Shown piece by piece: positions 16,708 through 62,814 of a DNA stretch of 64,000 nucleotides. Where the stretch lies: sequence record PX915678.1, one strand, 5' to 3'. The notes under the pieces are model-generated. The model had not been told where the DNA came from and searched no databases. It saw nothing but the letters and a program-made list of their open reading frames with translations. The DNA is from a phage. Positions within the stretch are counted from its first letter, which is position 1, and the number at the start of each line of letters is the position of its first letter. The translations under genes and the position numbers were made by a program.

Positions 16708-18972
16708 TCATAATTTACAGGATGAACAATCTTCAGCTTTTGGAGTTTCTATTTCATAATCATCAGTACCAGAACCGTCACGGGTATTATGATAATAGAA
16801 ATTTTTTCCGCCAAAATACCAAAAATATAAAAGGTCATCAATCATTATTGACATTGGAACCTTTCCTTTTGGAAAAATCTGCGGGTCATAATATGTATTC
16901 GCTGAAGCTGATTGACACACCCATTTAAGCATAATAGCTACCTGCGTAAGATAAGGTTTATTACCTTTCTTAGCTAATTTCCACGTATAATCATATAGGT
17001 CTATGTTATGCTCAATATTGGGCACGACTTGATTAAAGGAACCCTCTTTTGATTCTTTAACAGAGACTGGTCCACGTGGAGGCTCGATACCGTTTGTACT
17101 GTTAGAAACTTGGGAAGATGACTCACATGGCATAAGTGCTGATAATGTGCTATTACGGATGCCAAAGAGCTTAAGGTCTTCCCGCAGCGACGACCAGTCA
17201 CAAACGTATTTTGGAGCTGCGATTTGGTCAATCTTTTTATTGTACCAGTCGATAGGTAATTCGCCTCGAGACCAACGAGTGTCTGAATAATATTCGCAAG
17301 GTCCTTTTTCTTTGGCGAGCTTAATGGATGCTTTAATGAGTCCATACTGTAATCTCTCAAATAGTTCGTGTGTTAAATCGTTAGCATCTTCATAAGAAGC
17401 AAAATTACTTGCCAGCCAAGCTGCATAGTTAGTAACACCTACACCAAGGTTTCGACGCTTTTTGGCTTTTTCTGCTTCAGGAACTGGATATCCTTGGTAA
17501 TCCAAAAGATTATCAAGAGCACGAACTTGGACTTCTGCCAATTCATTAATTTTATCTTGGTCTTGCCAATCGAAGTTATCTAACACAAATGCAGATAACG
17601 TGCACAATCCAATTTCAGCATCAGGACTATTCACATCATTTGTTGGAATAGCAATTTCACAACACAAGTTGCTCTGACGAATAGGTGCCTTTTCACGAAT
17701 AAACGGAGTATAGTTATTCGTATTATCAATGAACTGTACATAAATCCTTGCTGTTCCTGAGCGTTCAGTCATGAGCAATTCAAACAGTTCACGGGCTTTA
17801 ATACGCTTTTTACGAATATTAGGGTCTTTTTCTGCAGCTTCATATAATTCACGGAAACGGTCTTGGTCTTTAAAATAAGAATAATAAAGTTCGCCACCCA
17901 TTTCATGCGGACTGAACAAAGTAATGTAATCATTCTTTCCGAATCGTTCCATCATCAAATCATTCAGCTGGACGCCATAATCCATATGACGGATACGGTT
18001 TTCTTCTACACCTTTGTTATTTTTCAAAACGAGAAGATTTTCAACTTCCAAATGCCAAATAGGATAATAAGCAGTAGCAGCGCCGCCACGAATTCCACCC
18101 TGTGAGCATGATTTAACAGCAGTCTGAAAATGTTTCCAAAAAGGAATAACGCCAGTATGGCGTACTTCACCTGTGCCAATCTTAGAACCTTCGGCACGAA
18201 TCATACCAACGTTAATACCAATTCCAGCACGTTTGGAGATATATTCAACAATTGAAGCAGAAGCCTTATTGATAGACTTTAATGAATCACCTGCTTCAAT
18301 AACAACGCATGAACTAAACTGCCGAGTTGGAGTACGGCAACCAGCCATAATAGGAGTTGGCAGTGAAATCTGTCGAGTAGATACTGCTTCATAAAAACGA
18401 ATAACATGTTTTAATCTATCAACAGGTTCATCTTGATGCAATGCCATTCCAATAGTCATAAATGCAAACTGTGGAGTTTCATAAATTTGACCAGTGGTTT
18501 TATCTTTAACTAGATATTTTTCTTTTAATTGCATCGCCCCGGAATAAGTAAATTCCATATCCCGTTCGTGCTTAATTTTTGATTCTAAAAATGTAATTTC
18601 TTCTGCTGAATATTTTGACAACAATTCAGGGTCGTATTTACCTTCATTTACACAGTAAGAAATATGGTCAATAAATGAACGTGGTTCATACTGCCCGTAA
18701 ACATGCTTACGAAGAGCGAACATTAAACAGCGTGCAGCTACGTATTGATAATCAGGCTCTTCAACTGAAATAGAATTCGCAGCAGCCTTAATTACAATGG
18801 TTTGAATGTCATCAGTTGTCATTCCATCACGGAGATATGATTTAATATTTTCATATAATTCATAAGGATCTACAGATGTTCCTTCAGCTGCCCAAGATAA
18901 AACTTTAATAATTTTTTGTGGGTCAAAGCTCTGAGAAACACCACTACTTTTGATAACATTAATTAATTGCAT
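16708..18972 (-). CDS. nrdA: ribonucleotide reductase large subunit (class Ia alpha)
   Basis: 754 aa; ATP-cone N-terminus, C-terminal CxxC pair. Confidence 0.95.
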   Translation of the reverse strand: MQLINVIKSSGVSQSFDPQKIIKVLSWAAEGTSVDPYELYENIKSYLRDGMTTDDIQTIVIKAAANSISVEEPDYQYVAARCLMFALRKHVYGQYEPRSFIDHISYCVNEGKYDPELLSKYSAEEITFLESKIKHERDMEFTYSGAMQLKEKYLVKDKTTGQIYETPQFAFMTIGMALHQDEPVDRLKHVIRFYEAVSTRQISLPTPIMAGCRTPTRQFSSCVVIEAGDSLKSINKASASIVEYISKRAGIGINVGMIRAEGSKIGTGEVRHTGVIPFWKHFQTAVKSCSQGGIRGGAATAYYPIWHLEVENLLVLKNNKGVEENRIRHMDYGVQLNDLMMERFGKNDYITLFSPHEMGGELYYSYFKDQDRFRELYEAAEKDPNIRKKRIKARELFELLMTERSGTARIYVQFIDNTNNYTPFIREKAPIRQSNLCCEIAIPTNDVNSPDAEIGLCTLSAFVLDNFDWQDQDKINELAEVQVRALDNLLDYQGYPVPEAEKAKKRRNLGVGVTNYAAWLASNFASYEDANDLTHELFERLQYGLIKASIKLAKEKGPCEYYSDTRWSRGELPIDWYNKKIDQIAAPKYVCDWSSLREDLKLFGIRNSTLSALMPCESSSQVSNSTNGIEPPRGPVSVKESKEGSFNQVVPNIEHNIDLYDYTWKLAKKGNKPYLTQVAIMLKWVCQSASANTYYDPQIFPKGKVPMSIMIDDLLYFWYFGGKNFYYHNTRDGSGTDDYEIETPKAEDCSSCKL

Positions 18973-36006: not shown

Positions 36007-36663
36007 ATGGCAGCACCTAGAATATCATTTTCGCCCTCTGATATTCTGTTTGGTGTTCTAGATCGCTTGTTCAAAGATAACGCTACCGGGAAAGTTCTTG
36101 CTTCCCGGGTAGCTGTCGTAATTCTTTTGTTTATAATGGCGATTGTTTGGTATAGGGGAGATAGTTTCTTTGAGTACTATAAGCAATCAAAGTATGAAAC
36201 ATACAGTGAAATTATTGAAAAGGAAAGAAATGCACGCTTTGAATCTGTCGCCCTGGAACAACTCCAGATAGTTCATATATCATCTGAGGCAGACTTTAGT
36301 GCGGTGTATTCTTTCCGCCCTAAAAACTTAAACTATTTTGTTGATATTATAGCATATGAAGGAAAATTACCTTCAACGATAAGTGAAAAATCACTTGGAG
36401 GATATCCTGTTGATAAAACTATGGATGAATATGCAGTTCATTTAAATGGACGTCATTATTATTCCAACTCAAAATTTGCTTTTTTACCGACTAAAAAGCC
36501 TACTCCCGAAATAAATTACATGTACAGTTGTCCATATTTCAATTTGGATAATATCTATGCTGGAACAATAACCATGTACTGGTATAGAAATGATCATATA
36601 AGTAATGACCGCCTTGAATCAATATGTGCTCAGGCGGCCAGAATATTAGGAAGGGCTAAATAA
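36007..36663 (+). CDS. t: holin T
   Basis: 218 aa; single N-terminal TM (VAVVILLFIMAIVWY) and large periplasmic domain; SD AAGGAGGG. Confidence 0.9.
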   Translation: MAAPRISFSPSDILFGVLDRLFKDNATGKVLASRVAVVILLFIMAIVWYRGDSFFEYYKQSKYETYSEIIEKERNARFESVALEQLQIVHISSEADFSAVYSFRPKNLNYFVDIIAYEGKLPSTISEKSLGGYPVDKTMDEYAVHLNGRHYYSNSKFAFLPTKKPTPEINYMYSCPYFNLDNIYAGTITMYWYRNDHISNDRLESICAQAARILGRAK

Positions 36664-47719: not shown

Positions 47720-47749
47720 ATTATACCACATCCTTGTGGTAAAGTAAAC
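47720..47749 (-). promoter_or_regulatory. T4-type early promoter
   Basis: Minus strand GTTTAC-18 nt-TATAAT; -35 overlaps gene 39 stop. Confidence 0.5.
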
Positions 47750-49566
47750 TATTGGCTCATCCATTCTTTACGAAGGTCAGCATTATCTCCCATGAGCATT
47801 TCAAAAAGCTCTTTCCAGTTCTCAGGAAGTTTAACAACATCATATACTGGGTTTTGAATCATCTCACGATATTCAGATTTTTCCAAAGAGCCAAGTCCCT
47901 TAATATAACGGATGCTATGTTTAGGTAGAGCATCTTTGGCACTCTCATATTCAGCGACTGTATAAAACCATTCTTGTTTTTTACCGACCTGAGCGATGAT
48001 TACGGGAGTTTTGACGAAGCGAATTCTTCCTTGTTCAAACAGTTCTGGCCAATTACTAAAAAATCCGAGCAGAGAAGGATAAATGCTTCCTAGACCATCA
48101 TGGTCAGCATCAGTCATAATAGCAATATTATGATAATTCAAGTTTTCAGCTTTTTCGCCAAGAACTAATCCAGTGATTGCGCAAATATCAAACAGTTCTT
48201 TGTTTTTAAGCATATCAGCATATGACATACCCCAACTGTTGAGAACTTTACCACGCAATGGATAACCACCGTGAAGTTCTTTATCACGAACATCAATAAG
48301 ATATCCGATAGCAGAATCACCCTCAGTCAAGAAAAGAGTCGTGTCAGCATCTTTACCACAAAGATTCGCTTTAATGTGTTTATGAACCTTAGCTTTAGAG
48401 GCCTTTTTAGCTGCTTTAGTTTCTGCTGCTTTTTCTGCCGCCAATTTACGAGCCAAGGCAGCTTCAATAATTGGCATTAAAATTGCTTCATTGTTTAAAA
48501 TAGCGCGTGAAATCTTTTTAGCATCAAGTTGAATATGACTACGGATTTCACCAAATGGAGAAGTCAAACGCTCTTTAGTTTGAGAATCAAATCGCATGTT
48601 TTTCATATCACGAACAAACATAACGATAGTCAAACATTCTTTGACACGAGCTTTAGTTACATCAATTTTGAACTTACGTTTGATTTGTGGAATAAGGTCT
48701 TCACAAATATCATCCATAACGCAGTCAATATGATGGCCACCATTCTTAGTATGAATGTTATTGACGTATGTTAATTGACGAAAACCATCCGGTGAACGAC
48801 CAACCGCAATAGAACAATTTTCTTGTTCTTGAACAATAGCATGCTCATCATATTGGCGTGCATATTTCTTAAAATTACCCTGAACCTTTTTACCATTAAA
48901 GGTAAATTGAATATCAGGATAAACTACTGCAAGTGTCTGGAGACGATCCAGTGTAATGTCAAGATAAACTTGAGATAGCTCATTAGTTTCAAATGACATA
49001 AAATCAGGAATGAAAGTAACACGAGTTCCTTTCCATTTTCCAGGAATAGTTTCCCATGATTTATTTTCCATGCCATTTGAACAACGAACTACAATATTAT
49101 TTTGACCGTCGCCAGTTTCACCGACAAACATCACAGAAAAAATGTTAGTTAAACTAGAACCAACACCGTTCATACCGCCAGTGACACGTTCTTTATCATC
49201 ACCGAAGTTACCACCTGCTTTTGGAATAGTCCAGGCGGCAACAGGACCGGGAATTTCTTCACCAGTAGGTGTTTTAACCATCGCTTGTGGAATACCACGA
49301 CCGTTATCTTCAACTGTTACTTGATTGTTTTTGATAGTAACATTAATTTTATTCGCGAATTTAAACTTAGTACGAATACCTTCATCTACTGAGTTATCGA
49401 TAATTTCATCAATAAGCTTAACAAGACCAGGTACATACTGAACACTTTCCCATTTACCAAACAGAAAGCGCTCATGCATTTCATTAGCGGAAGAGCCAAT
49501 GTACATGCCGCTACGCTTTTTGATATGTTCAATATCGCTCAGAATTTTAATTTCATTCTTAATCAT
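47749..49566 (-). CDS. 39: DNA topoisomerase II large subunit, unsplit (GyrB-like ATPase plus Toprim in one ORF)
   Basis: 605 aa from MIKNEIKIL; GHKL ATPase N-terminus; Toprim motifs LTEGDSA and MTDADHDG in the same ORF. Confidence 0.9.
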   Translation of the reverse strand: MIKNEIKILSDIEHIKKRSGMYIGSSANEMHERFLFGKWESVQYVPGLVKLIDEIIDNSVDEGIRTKFKFANKINVTIKNNQVTVEDNGRGIPQAMVKTPTGEEIPGPVAAWTIPKAGGNFGDDKERVTGGMNGVGSSLTNIFSVMFVGETGDGQNNIVVRCSNGMENKSWETIPGKWKGTRVTFIPDFMSFETNELSQVYLDITLDRLQTLAVVYPDIQFTFNGKKVQGNFKKYARQYDEHAIVQEQENCSIAVGRSPDGFRQLTYVNNIHTKNGGHHIDCVMDDICEDLIPQIKRKFKIDVTKARVKECLTIVMFVRDMKNMRFDSQTKERLTSPFGEIRSHIQLDAKKISRAILNNEAILMPIIEAALARKLAAEKAAETKAAKKASKAKVHKHIKANLCGKDADTTLFLTEGDSAIGYLIDVRDKELHGGYPLRGKVLNSWGMSYADMLKNKELFDICAITGLVLGEKAENLNYHNIAIMTDADHDGLGSIYPSLLGFFSNWPELFEQGRIRFVKTPVIIAQVGKKQEWFYTVAEYESAKDALPKHSIRYIKGLGSLEKSEYREMIQNPVYDVVKLPENWKELFEMLMGDNADLRKEWMSQ

Positions 49567-49620
49567 CACTTATCCTCGTTTGGTTTCGGGAATATTATAC
49601 TCCGGTAATCATAAAGCTAA

Positions 49621-49634
49621 AGGCCCGAAGGCCT
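49621..49634 (-). other. C(UUCG)G hairpin upstream of gene 39
   Basis: aggcc-cgaa-ggcct after lipoprotein gene stop. Confidence 0.4.
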
Positions 49635-49635
49635 T

Positions 49636-49908
49636 TTATTTAAAACGGATAGTCGAATCCTTGAAGAATAGTCCAGAACATACTGTTCCTTCTACTTTCT
49701 GCCCAGTAGGTCCAATAGCACGAAATCCAGTATGCTGGAAATCATTTTCAGAGCAACCAAACCAATTGTATCCAGTGATTTCAATATCAGTAAACCCACT
49801 TGAAGACAAAACTTTAGTTGCATTATCAGCATCAGTACATCCTACTAAAGATACTGCTAATACTAATGCCGCGATAGAACGATTAACATATTTCATAATT
49901 TCACTCAA
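49636..49908 (-). CDS. small lipoprotein
   Basis: Signal peptide with lipobox (MKYVNRSIAALVLAVSLVGC); start may be 49896. Confidence 0.55.
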   Translation of the reverse strand: MSEIMKYVNRSIAALVLAVSLVGCTDADNATKVLSSSGFTDIEITGYNWFGCSENDFQHTGFRAIGPTGQKVEGTVCSGLFFKDSTIRFK

Positions 49909-50272
49909 ATTTAATGGCTTGAAGAAGACTAATGATTCTCAAGCGACTTCTTTCATCTTTAACTGTAAAGGAAAGAGGGTCACCAGATTTCATAGTAATA
50001 GTGCATTCAAAATCAAAATCTTCTGTAACTTCTTCGAAGAAGTCAAATTCTTCATCATAAATTAGAACATTACTCTGAAAACTGTGAAGAATTTTTCCAT
50101 CATTTCCAGATGCTGTACTAATCATTGTAACATTATGGCCTTTCATATCTTCAACGATAAATTCGCTTGTAGATATTACGGCATTAATAGAACCATTCCT
50201 ATAAATAGAAGAAAGCAGATATTTCTTTTCTTCACCTTCACGAACACGATATTTCTTACCGATTTTAAACAT
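49901..50272 (-). CDS. hypothetical protein (123 aa)
   Basis: Start at ATG 50272 (track start is GTG). Confidence 0.5.
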   Translation of the reverse strand: MFKIGKKYRVREGEEKKYLLSSIYRNGSINAVISTSEFIVEDMKGHNVTMISTASGNDGKILHSFQSNVLIYDEEFDFFEEVTEDFDFECTITMKSGDPLSFTVKDERSRLRIISLLQAIKFE

Positions 50273-60473: not shown

Positions 60474-60992
60474 TCAATAACCTCGGTCTTGACGAGCGAA
60501 GTTTTCAGCATTTTTCAGATAATAAAGTTTAAAGATTTCTTCAGCAGTAAGACCGAGACCTTGGAACATGTTCAGAACGAAATGAAGAATATCAATCATT
60601 TCGAATTTAATTTCCAACTGGTCTTGTGGAGACAAATCAGTAATTAAAGTTTCACGGCGTTCACCGTGTTGCGACTTCCAAGGTTTCCATACAGCAGATG
60701 CATCTTTTTCACCATTGCTCATACCACCAAGAGAAGTCAGAAGTTCGCGGAATTCATCATCAATATAATCTTTCTGATTACGCAGCCAATCAACAACTTC
60801 ACCTGCAGTAGCCAAATCATCAGGATGATGGTTATATTCAGGTTTATCTTTAGCTAAACGAACCTGCAGAGATTTCTGCATATCAAGCATAACCTGCAGC
60901 GGGTCTTTTTCATCACCGAGAATATCCCAGTATTCATTTTGAGCTTTATCAGCGCCTTCAATCAGTTGACTACATTCATTAAAGTAAGCCAT
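60474..60992 (-). CDS. 56: dCTPase/dUTPase (MazG-like NTP pyrophosphatase)
   Basis: 172 aa from MAYFNECSQLIEGADKAQNEYWDILGDE; SD AAGGAAAA; track N-terminal extension rejected. Confidence 0.8.
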   Translation of the reverse strand: MAYFNECSQLIEGADKAQNEYWDILGDEKDPLQVMLDMQKSLQVRLAKDKPEYNHHPDDLATAGEVVDWLRNQKDYIDDEFRELLTSLGGMSNGEKDASAVWKPWKSQHGERRETLITDLSPQDQLEIKFEMIDILHFVLNMFQGLGLTAEEIFKLYYLKNAENFARQDRGY

Positions 60993-61063
60993 TATTTTTC
61001 CTTTCAATTCATGGGTTAGTAGATTAATTATACAATAAATATATAAAGCAATAAGGAGGACAT

Positions 61064-61264
61064 ATGGTACAAAAATTAATGGCACTTGTTAATGCCATAA
61101 AAGGTAATAAAAAACGTATAGCTTTTACTATTTCTGCTATGGTAGGAATTTTACTCTGGAATTTTGTTTTATCACCAATTGCTATTGCTCATGGTGTTAA
61201 TATTCCAGTAATTACTCTTGATACATTCGTAGATTTAGCATTTGCTTTGGTTGGGTTAATTTAA
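61064..61264 (+). CDS. small membrane protein (66 aa) on opposite strand between genes 56 and 61
   Basis: Strong SD AAGGAGGA 4 nt before ATG; two predicted TM segments; stop overlaps gene 61 stop. Confidence 0.45.
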   Translation: MVQKLMALVNAIKGNKKRIAFTISAMVGILLWNFVLSPIAIAHGVNIPVITLDTFVDLAFALVGLI

Positions 61265-62289
61265 ATCTTAGCATATTTAGATAGCCGCATTTTAGCCATC
61301 AACCCTTGGGCAATATTATTTTTCATATATTCCATAATTTGTTCAGGGGTTGCACCTTCCTTTCTAATCATATCATTAACATCTTTTGATTTCCAGGGAG
61401 ATTTATCCCAAAACATAACCCTTTCTCCTGCATCAACTAATTTAGTCATTCGTTTAATAGTGTCAGGGTGACGAGGTTCATTATCTAAAACCCATACACG
61501 TCTATCTTTAAATGGAACAATTTCTAGGTCTAATTGACCACCCGTAATAGCTATACCATTTTCAATAAAAAGCGAATCTATAGGTCCTTCTAGAACATAT
61601 ACATCGCCATCTTTGACTCGTTCAACTCCATAGATTTTTGTTGCCTCAGGATAAGCTTTGATGGTGATATATTTTTGAGGAGCATCTTTCTTTAATGCAC
61701 GTCCTTGAAAAGACTCGGCTTTTCCGTTAGCATTATAAATTGGAATAACAAGACGAGGCTCGGGCATTTCCTTTTTATATGTTCCTGGCGCTATACTATT
61801 AACTAATTTAGGCCATTCGGTTGTAAACCAAAGATATTTCCATTTATCCTTTGGAATACAACGAGCTTTTACATATTTTATAATTGGATGGTCTTCCGCC
61901 AGTTTATCTAGTCTAATGCATGACGGAAGAGATTTAATTATTTTCTTCTCAGGTTGTTTAGGAAGTTCTTTAGGTTTTTCTACTGGACGACTTTTACCTT
62001 TTTCTTTTCTTATTTCAAAGATATATTCACGATATAAATCAGGTTCAAACTCCTTTAAATATATTCCGATTGGTGCATGATAGTTACAGTTATAACAATG
62101 AATATTTCCTTCATTATTATCGCCATAATACCATCCACGGGCTTTATTTTGATCGGTTTTTGAATCTCCACAAACAGGACATCTAAACCGTAATTTAAAA
62201 GTTGAACTATTATTTACTTGTGCGAATTTAGGTAAATGAGCCAATGCACGGTATGCAAACTCATTATCAATCCAAGGTATTGATGACAT
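61261..62289 (-). CDS. 61: DNA primase gp61
   Basis: 342 aa; zinc ribbon CPVCGDSKTDQNKARGWYY...CYNCNYH; Toprim-like core. Confidence 0.9.
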   Translation of the reverse strand: MSSIPWIDNEFAYRALAHLPKFAQVNNSSTFKLRFRCPVCGDSKTDQNKARGWYYGDNNEGNIHCYNCNYHAPIGIYLKEFEPDLYREYIFEIRKEKGKSRPVEKPKELPKQPEKKIIKSLPSCIRLDKLAEDHPIIKYVKARCIPKDKWKYLWFTTEWPKLVNSIAPGTYKKEMPEPRLVIPIYNANGKAESFQGRALKKDAPQKYITIKAYPEATKIYGVERVKDGDVYVLEGPIDSLFIENGIAITGGQLDLEIVPFKDRRVWVLDNEPRHPDTIKRMTKLVDAGERVMFWDKSPWKSKDVNDMIRKEGATPEQIMEYMKNNIAQGLMAKMRLSKYAKI

Positions 62290-62457: not shown

Positions 62458-62814
62458 TTAACCTCTATTCATAAAAGCATTAAAAATTTGGTCATCAATC
62501 GATGGAATAGCAACTTTTTCTGCATCATTTAGCAAATCATTAATTTCATCAGATAGCATAACGCATGTACCTTTATTTCCTGTAATTGTTACTGCGCAAT
62601 TACGAACGTTTTCTTTATCAAATTTTAGGTTAATATTTTCGTAGTGAAAATCCTTTAATGCCGAATATATTTTTAAAATGAAATTGTCTTTTACTACAAT
62701 AAACCCAACTTCACTATTAAAACGTGGTTCATGGAAACTGTAATAAACCTTTTCATCTATAAAATCGTATGAAATTTTTTCCATTTTTAAATATGAAAAT
62801 TCAGAACTGTACAT
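62458..62814 (-). CDS. hypothetical protein (118 aa; 61.2 position, possible anti-DarT factor locus)
   Basis: Sits where T4-like gene 61.2 lies; function not inferable from sequence. Confidence 0.45.
   Translation of the reverse strand: MYSSEFSYLKMEKISYDFIDEKVYYSFHEPRFNSEVGFIVVKDNFILKIYSALKDFHYENINLKFDKENVRNCAVTITGNKGTCVMLSDEINDLLNDAEKVAIPSIDDQIFNAFMNRG

What the first reader, a model, noticed from the sequence alone, without database searches (positions are those of the whole stretch)
61064..61264. Lone plus-strand membrane micro-gene between genes 56 and 61
Everything in the surrounding ~25 kb is on the minus strand, yet this 66-aa ORF has a strong SD (AAGGAGGA), two predicted TM segments, and ends convergently overlapping the gene 61 stop. 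A TATA-rich element lies just upstream. It may be an unannotated membrane protein, possibly involved in exclusion or lysis timing.
Basis: seen in the sequence. Interest (0 to 1): 0.45.

Follow-up and report, generated by a model that had tools for sequence, protein, structure and literature searches.

The report
Conserved late membrane micro-gene beside primase
This is a real, strongly conserved 66-codon gene of T4-type phages, listed in databases as a hypothetical protein (T4T dam.1, RB69ORF029w, PHROG 2024), that most likely makes a small inner-membrane protein late in infection. Its job is still unknown, and it is a known-but-unstudied gene rather than a new discovery.

Summary
The ORF at 61064..61264 (+) exists as described and is a genuine gene. 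The window is a Tequatrovirus. The same protein is annotated as "hypothetical" in many relatives (dam.1 in T4T, RB32ORF030w, RB69ORF029w; PHROG 2024), but not in the T4 reference records. Relatives occur in about 800 phage records in two paralogous types, nearly always convergent with the 3' end of primase gene 61. The frame stays open while synonymous sites are saturated (dN/dS 0.1-0.2 within genera). Gapriverviruses carry both types in tandem. A late-promoter octamer (NATAAATA) sits 15-22 nt before the ATG in 9 of 11 lineages, although that heptamer is depleted in the window. The + strand is also the late-only polarity in T4. Only one transmembrane helix holds across the family, with a basic N-terminus predicted inside and a 24-residue tail outside. 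The invariant residues are W32, N33, P38 and A40, with G44 and P48 nearly so. The "TATA-rich element" is this late promoter lying inside the spacer of an opposite-strand MotA-type middle promoter for gene 56. No family, fold or paper gives a function. Holin, RI-like, signal-peptide and exclusion readings were tested and are weak. My best guess is a late membrane-embedded partner of another envelope protein, possibly affecting lysis timing.

The parts
61034..61041 (+). Late-promoter-like octamer AATAAATA (T4 consensus TATAAATA at -13..-6). The inferred transcription start is near 61047.
   Evidence: Read from the sequence. ATAAATA occurs only 16 times in the window against 36 expected. Other copies precede late genes at the same distance: soc, holin t and a tail-fibre gene. 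NATAAATA lies 15-22 nt before the ATG in 9 of 11 lineages, in otherwise diverged contexts. A at -13 is the commonest T4 variant, 9 of 50 sites (PMC2988020). No experimental start site is available.
61053..61060 (+). Shine-Dalgarno AAGGAGGA
   Evidence: GGAGG or GGAG is retained upstream of every homologue.
61064..61264 (+). CDS of 66 aa, the homologue of T4T dam.1, RB32ORF030w and RB69ORF029w; PHROG 2024
   Evidence: dN/dS is 0.10-0.22 within genera and synonymous sites are saturated between genera. Hits in 693 phage records. The exact protein is in NCBI as 'hypothetical protein' on 100 contigs.
61064..61117 (+). Residues 1-18: basic N-terminal helix (net +5), predicted cytoplasmic
   Evidence: AF2 helix 2-13. 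The N-flank is net +2 to +7 across the family. Topology is inferred from the positive-inside rule.
61118..61189 (+). Residues 19-42: the single robust transmembrane helix, carrying invariant W32, N33, P38 and A40
   Evidence: AF2 helix 16-42. TM 21-41 was predicted for RB69ORF029w (PMC1524935 supplement).
61190..61261 (+). Residues 43-66: conserved loop (G44, L47, P48, V50) and a short amphipathic C-terminal helix, predicted periplasmic
   Evidence: conservation; loop 43-51, helix 52-63; not a convincing second TM.
61261..62289 (-). Gene 61 (DNA primase), convergent, with its stop codon overlapping the ORF's stop
   Evidence: The same convergent arrangement recurs in Mosig-, Gapriver-, Dhaka-, Marfa-, Kanagawa- and Moonvirus.
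61027..61050 (-). MotA-type middle promoter for gene 56: TGCTTTA box (61050->61044), 11-nt spacer, TATAAT (61032->61027). The + strand late octamer lies inside its spacer.
   Evidence: Read from the sequence. The motif assignment rests on the established T4 middle-promoter consensus (my knowledge). A 'predicted middle promoter' is annotated at the homologous site in phage fPS-2.
61079..61098 (-). Terminator-like hairpin plus T-run on the minus strand (3' UTR of gene 61), lying within codons 6-12 of the ORF
   Evidence: A terminator is annotated at the equivalent place in fPS-2. The hairpin sequence is not present in RB69.
60474..60992 (-). Gene 56 (dCTPase), divergent neighbour. Its ATG is 71 nt from the ORF's ATG.

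Best explanation
SHOWN: the ORF is a genuine protein-coding gene under purifying selection. It belongs to a small family (PHROG 2024; T4T dam.1, RB69ORF029w) restricted to enterobacterial T4-type phages, and it is nearly always placed convergently against the 3' end of primase gene 61. INFERRED, strongly: it is a late gene. It lies on the strand that in T4 is transcribed only late, and it carries its own conserved gp55-type promoter (AATAAATA, start near 61047) and a strong SD. INFERRED: the product is a 7-kDa single-pass inner-membrane protein. Its basic N-terminus sits in the cytoplasm and a tail of about 24 residues sits at the periplasmic face. Conservation is concentrated in the outer half of the TM helix and the following loop (V29, W32, N33, P38, A40, G44, L47, P48, V50, D/E53). 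An invariant Asn inside a lone TM helix is the classic driver of helix-helix association. My committed mechanism is therefore that it works by membrane-embedded binding, either to itself or to another bitopic envelope protein made late. My best single guess for the partner or process is the lysis apparatus (holin T or the i-spanin), meaning fine-tuning of lysis timing. I put only about 0.25 on that step; the physiological function is not determined.
For: - **Coding.** The frame is open at 61-74 aa in every lineage. Between genera pS is 0.56-0.86 against pN 0.23-0.39, and omega is 0.10-0.22 within Tequatrovirus and Mosigvirus.
- **Distribution.** 693 records carry type A and 134 carry type B. 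Both types hit PHROG 2024 at E 1e-26 to 1e-31. Gaprivervirus has tandem A+B copies. There are 114 90%-identity clusters, all short proteins; every named one is from a T4-type phage or an enterobacterial assembly.
- **Late timing.** NATAAATA lies 15-22 nt before the ATG in 9 of 11 lineages, with perfect TATAAATA in Marfa, Q7622 and Kosakonia phage 305. The heptamer is depleted in the window, 16 copies against 36 expected, and its other copies precede soc, t and a tail-fibre gene. [quoted passage not shown]
- **Membrane and topology.** There is one hydrophobic segment with a positive N-flank throughout the family. The AF2 models give H2-13, H16-42, a loop and H52-63, at pLDDT 73-75. TM 21-41 was published for RB69ORF029w.
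- **Interaction motif.** The invariant and near-invariant columns are listed. N33, A40 and G44 fall within about 22 degrees of one another on a helical wheel.
Against: - There is no experimental transcript, start site, ribosome or protein evidence. The T4 dRNA-seq start-site table that could settle this is not readable here.
- Two lineages lack an exact ATAAATA (L014 and Moon).
- A 2006 HMM scan did not list a late promoter upstream of RB69ORF029w.
- The overall conservation moment of the TM helix is not significant, with 29% of shuffles reaching it, because W32 and P38 lie on other faces.
- The TM hydrophobicity is marginal, with a crude insertion sum of -0.9 to +3.2 kcal/mol.
- Nothing links the protein to lysis: no family, fold or literature hit. 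To my knowledge, decades of T4 rapid-lysis screens have not mapped an r locus between genes 56 and 61.
Confidence: 0.72

Rival explanations
1. It is a chance ORF in an intergenic region. The sequence is conserved only because of minus-strand signals: the 3' UTR and terminator of gene 61 and the promoter of gene 56.
For: The region does carry a minus-strand terminator-like hairpin and a middle promoter. An ORF of this length arises in 2% of shuffles. The T4 reference annotators did not call it.
Against: Substitutions are concentrated at synonymous sites. The frame and length are kept at only 18-27% protein identity. Tandem paralogues exist. The hairpin is absent outside Tequatrovirus. No Rfam family matches.
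Confidence: 0.02
2. It is a holin, pinholin or viroporin-like pore. The small late protein oligomerises through its polar TM residues (N33, plus an Asp in type B) and depolarises or permeabilises the inner membrane.
For: It is small, inferred to be late and membrane-located, and has an invariant Asn in the TM. One UniProt entry for the phage OE5505 homologue is named 'Holin'.
Against: No Pfam, NCBIfam or PHROG holin family matches, even at E up to 10. It lacks the charged cytoplasmic C-terminal tail typical of holins; the protein ends in hydrophobic residues. It is not next to endolysin or spanin genes. The window already encodes holin T at 36007..36663. The 'Holin' label has no stated evidence.
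Confidence: 0.1
3. It is a superinfection-exclusion or immunity protein acting at the inner membrane, like T4 Imm or Sp.
For: It is a small envelope protein, and spackle (sp) lies 1.6 kb away in the same region.
Against: Imm and Sp are early genes on the other strand. This gene has late-only polarity and a late-promoter motif, which is too late to block the first superinfecting phages. No PADLOC hit.
Confidence: 0.08
4. It is a membrane-associated assembly accessory, for example for prohead initiation on the inner membrane.
For: Late timing is inferred. One GenBank record (phage BW-1) labels the homologue 'putative head morphogenesis protein'.
Against: The label is unsupported. There is no similarity to any structural or assembly family. 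The gene is absent from this locus in a Karamvirus and a Winklervirus that build the same kind of virion.
Confidence: 0.1
5. It is the precursor of a secreted peptide. The TM acts as a long signal peptide cleaved after P-x-A-x-A, releasing a 24-residue periplasmic peptide (HGVNIPVITLDTFVDLAFALVGLI).
For: Pro at -5, Ala at -3 and a small residue at -1 (A, S or T) occur in most members, followed by an invariant Gly at +2.
Against: The -1 position is Met or Phe in two lineages, and -3 is Leu in Mosigvirus. The hydrophobic core is about 20 residues, which is signal-anchor length. SignalP was negative for RB69ORF029w in PMC1524935.
Confidence: 0.05
6. The main role is at the RNA level. Late transcription from this promoter runs antisense into gene 61 and collides with the gene 56 middle promoter, shutting down early genes; the peptide is secondary.
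For: The stops overlap, and no + strand terminator is predicted downstream within gene 61. The late octamer sits inside the spacer of the gene 56 middle promoter. T4 is known to transcribe both strands at several sites at different times.
Against: Strong selection on the amino-acid sequence shows that the protein matters. In L014 a gap and hairpin separate the two genes, and in Bp7 the ORF lies about 770 bp from gene 61, so the overlap is dispensable. This reading is not exclusive of the best explanation.
Confidence: 0.05

Closest known systems
T4T Dam.1 (ADJ39749.1), RB32ORF030w, RB69ORF029w (NP_861719.1); PHROG 2024, 'unknown function'
   Same: It is the same gene. It is 95.5% identical to the T4T copy and 100% identical to CDSs in Sfk20 and ime09. 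It has the same position and orientation against gene 61. The PHROG match is full length, E 5e-31.
   Different: Nothing substantive differs. In this phage dam and segF are absent, so the gene's promoter abuts the gene 56 promoter directly. None of these entries has an assigned function.
Type-B paralogues: VR25_032, MN04_00157 (Dhakavirus), Marfa HWC54_gp028, Moon CPT_Moon35, and Kanagawavirus copies
   Same: They share the PHROG, length, architecture, W-N...P.A...G...P core, late-promoter motif and placement beside gene 61.
   Different: They are only 18-27% identical to the window protein. Type B proper (Gaprivervirus copy 2, Dhakavirus, Marfavirus, Q7622) carries an Asp in the TM and a His/Ser-rich C-terminal helix. 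Gaprivervirus has both types.
Phage holins (T4 T; class II/III holins; pinholins)
   Same: They are small, late, inner-membrane proteins. T4 T is also N-in/C-out with one TM.
   Different: There is no sequence-family match, no charged cytoplasmic tail and no lysis-cassette context, and a bona fide holin t is already present.
T4 RI antiholin (signal-anchor-release N-terminus)
   Same: It is a short T-even protein with a marginally hydrophobic N-in TM. The pair shares the pentapeptide FVLSP, and the pairwise local match has E 0.009.
   Different: Profile-profile comparison finds no relationship, at probability 0.05%. FVLSP is confined to Tequatrovirus copies. RI has a 70-residue periplasmic domain, whereas this protein has 24 residues.
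Salmonella phage BSPM4 ORF52 (PMC11657625)
   Same: It is a 64-aa single-TM phage protein encoded outside the lysis cassette. It localises to the membrane, binds the holin and delays lysis. It is a functional precedent for the lysis-timing guess.
   Different: It comes from an unrelated Chi-like phage, it is expressed early there, and sequence relatedness was not tested here.
T4 Imm and Sp (superinfection exclusion)
   Same: They are small envelope proteins of the same phages, and sp lies nearby.
   Different: They are early genes on the opposite strand. Imm has two TMs and Sp is a secreted periplasmic protein (my knowledge; sp annotation).

Membership tests
PHROG 2024 / dam.1 / RB69ORF029w family | Full-length match to the family profile | tested here: met
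   E 5.4e-31, residues 2-66 on profile positions 1-65 of 65.
PHROG 2024 / dam.1 / RB69ORF029w family | Position: convergent with and abutting the 3' end of primase gene 61 | tested here: met
PHROG 2024 / dam.1 / RB69ORF029w family | Core motif W-N-x4-P-x-A-x3-G-x3-P | tested here: met
   W32, N33, P38, A40, G44 and P48 are all present.
T4 late gene (gp55/gp33/gp45-dependent) | TATAAATA-type element placed to start transcription just upstream of the SD | tested here: met
   AATAAATA at 61034-61041, 22 nt before the ATG. It is conserved in 9 of 11 lineages, and A(-13) is an accepted variant.
T4 late gene (gp55/gp33/gp45-dependent) | Polarity compatible with late-only transcription | tested here: met
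   It lies on the strand opposite to all neighbouring early and middle genes. Polarity rule from PMC2988020.
T4 late gene (gp55/gp33/gp45-dependent) | Late, replication- and gp55-dependent RNA 5' end in vivo | not testable with these tools
   The dRNA-seq table of bioRxiv 10.1101/2024.04.04.588121 is not held as text.
Holins | At least one transmembrane domain | tested here: met
Holins | Highly charged, hydrophilic cytoplasmic C-terminal domain | tested here: not met
   The C-terminus is ...DLAFALVGLI. The charge cluster is N-terminal.
Holins | Match to a described holin sequence family | tested here: not met
   No Pfam, NCBIfam or PHROG holin hit at E up to 10.
Holins | Encoded with endolysin or spanin genes | tested here: not met
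   The neighbours are genes 56 and 61. Holin t lies 25 kb away.
Holins | Timed, lethal hole formation | not testable with these tools
   Needs expression and lysis assays.
RI-type antiholin / SAR domain | Sequence or profile relationship to RI (Pfam PF24205) | tested here: not met
   hhalign probability 0.05%. The pairwise E of 0.009 is confined to the hydrophobic segment. No Pfam hit.
RI-type antiholin / SAR domain | TM that exits the bilayer on depolarisation | not testable with these tools
   The hydrophobicity is marginal, but release needs experiment.
Sec signal peptide (SPase I substrate) | Small residues at -3 and -1 across the family, and a short hydrophobic core | tested here: not met
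   The -1 position is M or F in two lineages and -3 is L in Mosigvirus. The core is about 20 residues. SignalP was negative for the RB69 copy.
Superinfection exclusion (Imm/Sp type) | Early expression | tested here: not met
   Late-only polarity and a late motif; inferred, not measured.
Superinfection exclusion (Imm/Sp type) | Sequence similarity to Imm or Sp | not tested
   No direct comparison was run. No Pfam family, including T4_Spackle, matched the protein.

The most novel reading that the evidence does not exclude
A conserved late inner-membrane micro-protein, absent from the T4 reference annotation and therefore from most T4 omics analyses, could be an unrecognised component of T-even envelope control late in infection. 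It might modulate holin T or lysis inhibition, or act as a small Asn-lined oligomeric channel. That would add a new player to the best-studied phage lysis system.
Probability: 0.15. Interest if true: 0.65.

Novelty: already known. Interest (0 to 1): 0.3.

Why it matters
T4 is the reference organism for this phage group, yet its reference records leave this gene out. Transcriptome, proteome and genetic screens that rely on those records are therefore blind to it. The comparative evidence here shows it is a well-conserved late gene with a sharply defined membrane motif: purifying selection, two paralogous types, a fixed-distance late promoter and a single-pass topology. That makes it a cheap and well-posed target for a knockout and tagging experiment. 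If it touches lysis timing or lysis inhibition it would matter to a long-studied problem. If not, it still closes an annotation gap.

Tried and rejected
- **Family scans.** Pfam, NCBIfam and PADLOC scans of type A and type B members gave no hits at E up to 10.
- **Exhaustive profile search.** A search of 1.84 billion representatives found only family members and fragments, plus one spurious 1255-aa hydrophobic protein.
- **Structure searches.** Against BFVD, only family members appeared, one of them labelled 'Holin'. Against PDB there was nothing.
- **RI antiholin relationship.** Pairwise BLASTP gave FVLSP and E 0.009, but profile-profile comparison gave probability 0.05%. Rejected as a chance hydrophobic match.
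- **Signal-peptidase cleavage** at P-x-A-x-A. Rejected family-wide because of M or F at -1 and L at -3 in some lineages, and the published negative SignalP result.
- **Second transmembrane helix.** Not supported.
- **One-sided conservation of the TM helix.** The helical moment is not significant, with 29% of shuffles reaching it.
- **RNA element.** No Rfam hit, and the minus-strand fold z-score is only -1.9.
- **Literature.** Searches for dam.1, RB32ORF030w and RB69ORF029w found no papers, and searches for T4 ribosome profiling found nothing bearing on this gene.
- **T4 genome review.** The Miller et al. 2003 review is not held.
- **RB69 late-promoter list** (PMC1524935): it has no entry at this gene.
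- **IMG/VR scan.** It added only 7 loci, and the first attempt failed because the alignment was too diverse.

Full report
**What is there.** The window around the finding is a T-even (Tequatrovirus) early region. On the minus strand it carries soc, gene 56 (dCTPase, 60474..60992), gene 61 (primase, 61261..62289), 61.1, a short 61.2, sp, 61.4, dmd and the end of gene 41. The flagged ORF runs 61064..61264 on the + strand and encodes 66 aa. It is preceded by AAGGAGGA at 61053-61060. Its stop overlaps the stop of gene 61. From 36664 to the end of the window every tiling ORF is on the minus strand, so this is the only free-standing + strand ORF in about 27 kb. ORF length alone is only mildly unusual, since 2% of dinucleotide shuffles reach 66 aa.

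**It is a known, annotated, uncharacterised gene.** The 371 bp around the ORF are 100% identical to Shigella phages Sfk20 and ESh16, and 507 phage records match it, all at 90% identity or more. In Sfk20 the ORF is a called CDS, QPP47078.1. In T4T it is "dam.1", in RB14 "RB32ORF030w" and in RB69 "RB69ORF029w". The exact protein has several NCBI accessions and was seen on 100 contigs, always as "hypothetical protein". It matches PHROG 2024, "unknown function", at E 5e-31.

The two T4 reference records, AF158101 and NC_000866, do not annotate it. They leave a 309-bp gap between dam and 61. The exact T4-reference version of the protein exists only in raw assemblies, with no protein accession.

**It is under selection as a protein.**
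- tblastn finds it in 693 phage records: above 90% identity in Tequatrovirus and about 50% in Mosigvirus and Gaprivervirus.
- Two further lineages appear in sequencing-run assemblies, L014 at 68% identity and L016 at 52%.
- Across genera, synonymous sites are saturated (pS 0.56-0.86) while pN is 0.23-0.39.
- Within Tequatrovirus and within Mosigvirus, dN/dS is 0.10-0.22.

**The family is wider than the first search showed.**
- Gaprivervirus VR25 has a second small ORF directly downstream (VR25_032) with the same core.
- Homologues of that second type are the only copy in Dhakavirus, Marfavirus, Kanagawavirus and Moonvirus. They total 134 records, and the copy in Edwardsiella phage PEi20 is unannotated.
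- Both types hit PHROG 2024 at E 1e-26 to 1e-31.
- A profile search of 5.8 billion proteins gives 114 clusters, all 33-74 aa; every one that carries a source name comes from a T4-type phage or an enterobacterial assembly.
- An exhaustive HMM search of 1.84 billion representatives finds nothing outside the family.
- A Karamvirus and a Winklervirus lack the gene at this locus.
- Where two copies coexist the constraint looks relaxed: omega is 0.68 between two Gaprivervirus type-A copies, and type-B remnants are truncated in DK-13, SP18 and TH54.

**Synteny.** In nearly every lineage the gene is convergent with gene 61, and the stops usually overlap. The other side, between its promoter and gene 56, is a variable slot. 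It holds dam in T4, a homing endonuclease in fPS-2, other small ORFs in Kanagawa- and Moonvirus, and nothing here. The overlap with gene 61 is not obligatory. L014 has a 9-nt gap containing a hairpin, and in Bp7 the ORF lies about 770 bp from gene 61, whose match there is annotated as overlapping a homing endonuclease.

**Expression signals.** The "TATA-rich element" resolves into two overlapping promoters on opposite strands.

On the + strand, AATAAATA (61034-61041) ends 22 nt before the ATG. This is the T4 late-promoter octamer (consensus TATAAATA at -13..-6) with A at -13, the commonest variant, found at 9 of 50 T4 sites (PMC2988020). Four observations support it:
- The heptamer ATAAATA is depleted in the window, with 16 copies against 36 ± 6 expected.
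- Its other copies sit at the same distance upstream of late genes. TATAAATA lies before soc and a 1290-aa tail-fibre gene, and the identical AATAAATA lies before holin gene t.
- Across the family, NATAAATA ends 15-22 nt before the ATG in 9 of 11 lineages. Marfa, Q7622 and Kosakonia phage 305 have perfect TATAAATA. T4 has GATAAATA next to dam, in a different upstream context. The flanking sequence has otherwise diverged. L014 and Moon lack an exact match.

Late expression is therefore a strong inference, but it has not been demonstrated. A 2006 HMM scan of RB69 did not list a late promoter here.

On the minus strand, TGCTTTA (61050->61044), an 11-nt spacer and TATAAT (61032->61027) fit the MotA-dependent middle-promoter consensus for gene 56. 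That consensus is from my own knowledge; a middle promoter is annotated at the same place in fPS-2. The late octamer lies inside that spacer.

A terminator-like hairpin for gene 61 transcripts lies on the minus strand at 61098..61079, inside codons 6-12 of the ORF. It is specific to Tequatrovirus.

**The protein.** Two AlphaFold models, built from 5-sequence and 28-sequence alignments, agree at pLDDT 73-75. They give helix 2-13, helix 16-42, a loop at 43-51 and helix 52-63.

Only residues about 19-42 behave as a transmembrane segment throughout the family. The C-terminal stretch has a crude insertion cost of +5 to +11 kcal/mol and contains Arg, Glu or His in distant members. The published prediction for RB69ORF029w is likewise one TM (21-41) and no signal peptide. 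The N-flank is net +2 to +7 and the C-flank 0 to -2. By the positive-inside rule the protein is N-in/C-out, with about 24 residues at the periplasmic face.

Conservation is concentrated in the outer half of the TM and the loop. W32, N33, P38 and A40 are invariant. G44, P48, V29, L47, V50 and D/E53 are nearly invariant. N33, A40 and G44 fall on one helical face, but the whole-helix conservation moment is not significant.

An invariant Asn in a lone TM helix is a classic helix-association determinant (established knowledge). I therefore infer that the protein acts by binding within the membrane, either to itself or to a partner.

**Function.** No evidence fixes it.
- No Pfam, NCBIfam or PADLOC family matches.
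- Fold searches return only family members.
- No paper mentions any of its names.
- The labels "Holin", "putative head morphogenesis protein", "DNA packaging ATPase" and "dCTP pyrophosphatase" attached to a few members have no stated evidence.

The holin reading fails three of four testable criteria: no charged C-terminal tail, no family match and no lysis-cassette context. Holin t is also present at 36007..36663. A tempting local match to the signal-anchor-release domain of the antiholin RI (FVLSP, E 0.009) disappears in profile-profile comparison. A signal-peptidase site is not conserved. Exclusion in the manner of Imm or Sp is disfavoured by the late timing.

My committed view is that this is a late, N-in/C-out membrane micro-protein that binds another envelope protein. 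Modulation of lysis timing is the single most likely role, at about 0.25. The precedent is the 64-aa single-TM holin modulator ORF52 of Salmonella phage BSPM4 (PMC11657625). Against that, to my knowledge classical rapid-lysis screens never mapped a locus here.

**Verdict.** The gene is real and conserved but already catalogued as a hypothetical protein, so novelty is low. Its absence from the T4 reference annotation and its clean late-gene and membrane signature make it a reasonable small experimental target.

Noticed in passing
window 62458..62814 (-): The ORF in the position of T4 gene 61.2 is only 118 aa. It matches Pfam AdfA (anti-DarT factor A) at E 2e-8, but only over profile positions 114-211 of 211, so it is a half-length adfA. 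T4 61.2 is 208 aa, and Sfk20 lacks the gene entirely.
   Followed up: partly
window 60993..61063: This phage has neither dam nor segF at the gene 56 locus. The slot between gene 56 and the small gene's promoter is variable among relatives: dam in T4, a homing endonuclease in fPS-2, and other small ORFs in Kanagawa- and Moonvirus.
   Followed up: partly
window 61027..61050: Two promoters are interleaved on opposite strands. The + strand late octamer AATAAATA lies inside the 11-nt spacer of a minus-strand MotA-box/TATAAT middle promoter for gene 56. In Mosigvirus the order of the two elements is different, while the octamer keeps its distance to the ATG.
   Followed up: partly
whole window: The heptamer ATAAATA is strongly depleted, with 16 copies against 36 expected and fewer than in any of 100 shuffles. 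This is consistent with avoidance of spurious late promoters.
   Followed up: no
L005 1995..2401 (phage VR25); DK-13, SP18 and TH54: Gapriverviruses carry both paralogue types in tandem, 8 nt apart. Some relatives retain only the C-terminal 39-42 residues of the type-B copy, in DK-13 under an annotated homing endonuclease. This suggests redundancy and decay of one copy.
   Followed up: partly
L030 823..1008 (Edwardsiella phage PEi20, NC_028683 about 16719..16904): An unannotated family member sits between a pyrophosphohydrolase gene and gene 61, with CATAAATA 15 nt upstream of its ATG.
   Followed up: yes
window 61079..61098 (-): A terminator-like hairpin for gene 61 transcripts lies inside the small gene's codons 6-12. 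The same stem would also form in the + strand mRNA 15 nt after its start codon. It is present in T4 but not in RB69.
   Followed up: partly
window 49499..50065 (+): A 188-aa + strand ORF overlaps two small minus-strand ORFs in the region next to the 606-aa ORF at 47749..49569. It has no Pfam match. It was not examined further and may be spurious.
   Followed up: no
database records: A few family members carry unsupported or plainly wrong product names: 'Holin', 'putative head morphogenesis protein', 'DNA packaging ATPase', 'dCTP pyrophosphatase' and 'thymidylate synthase'.
   Followed up: no
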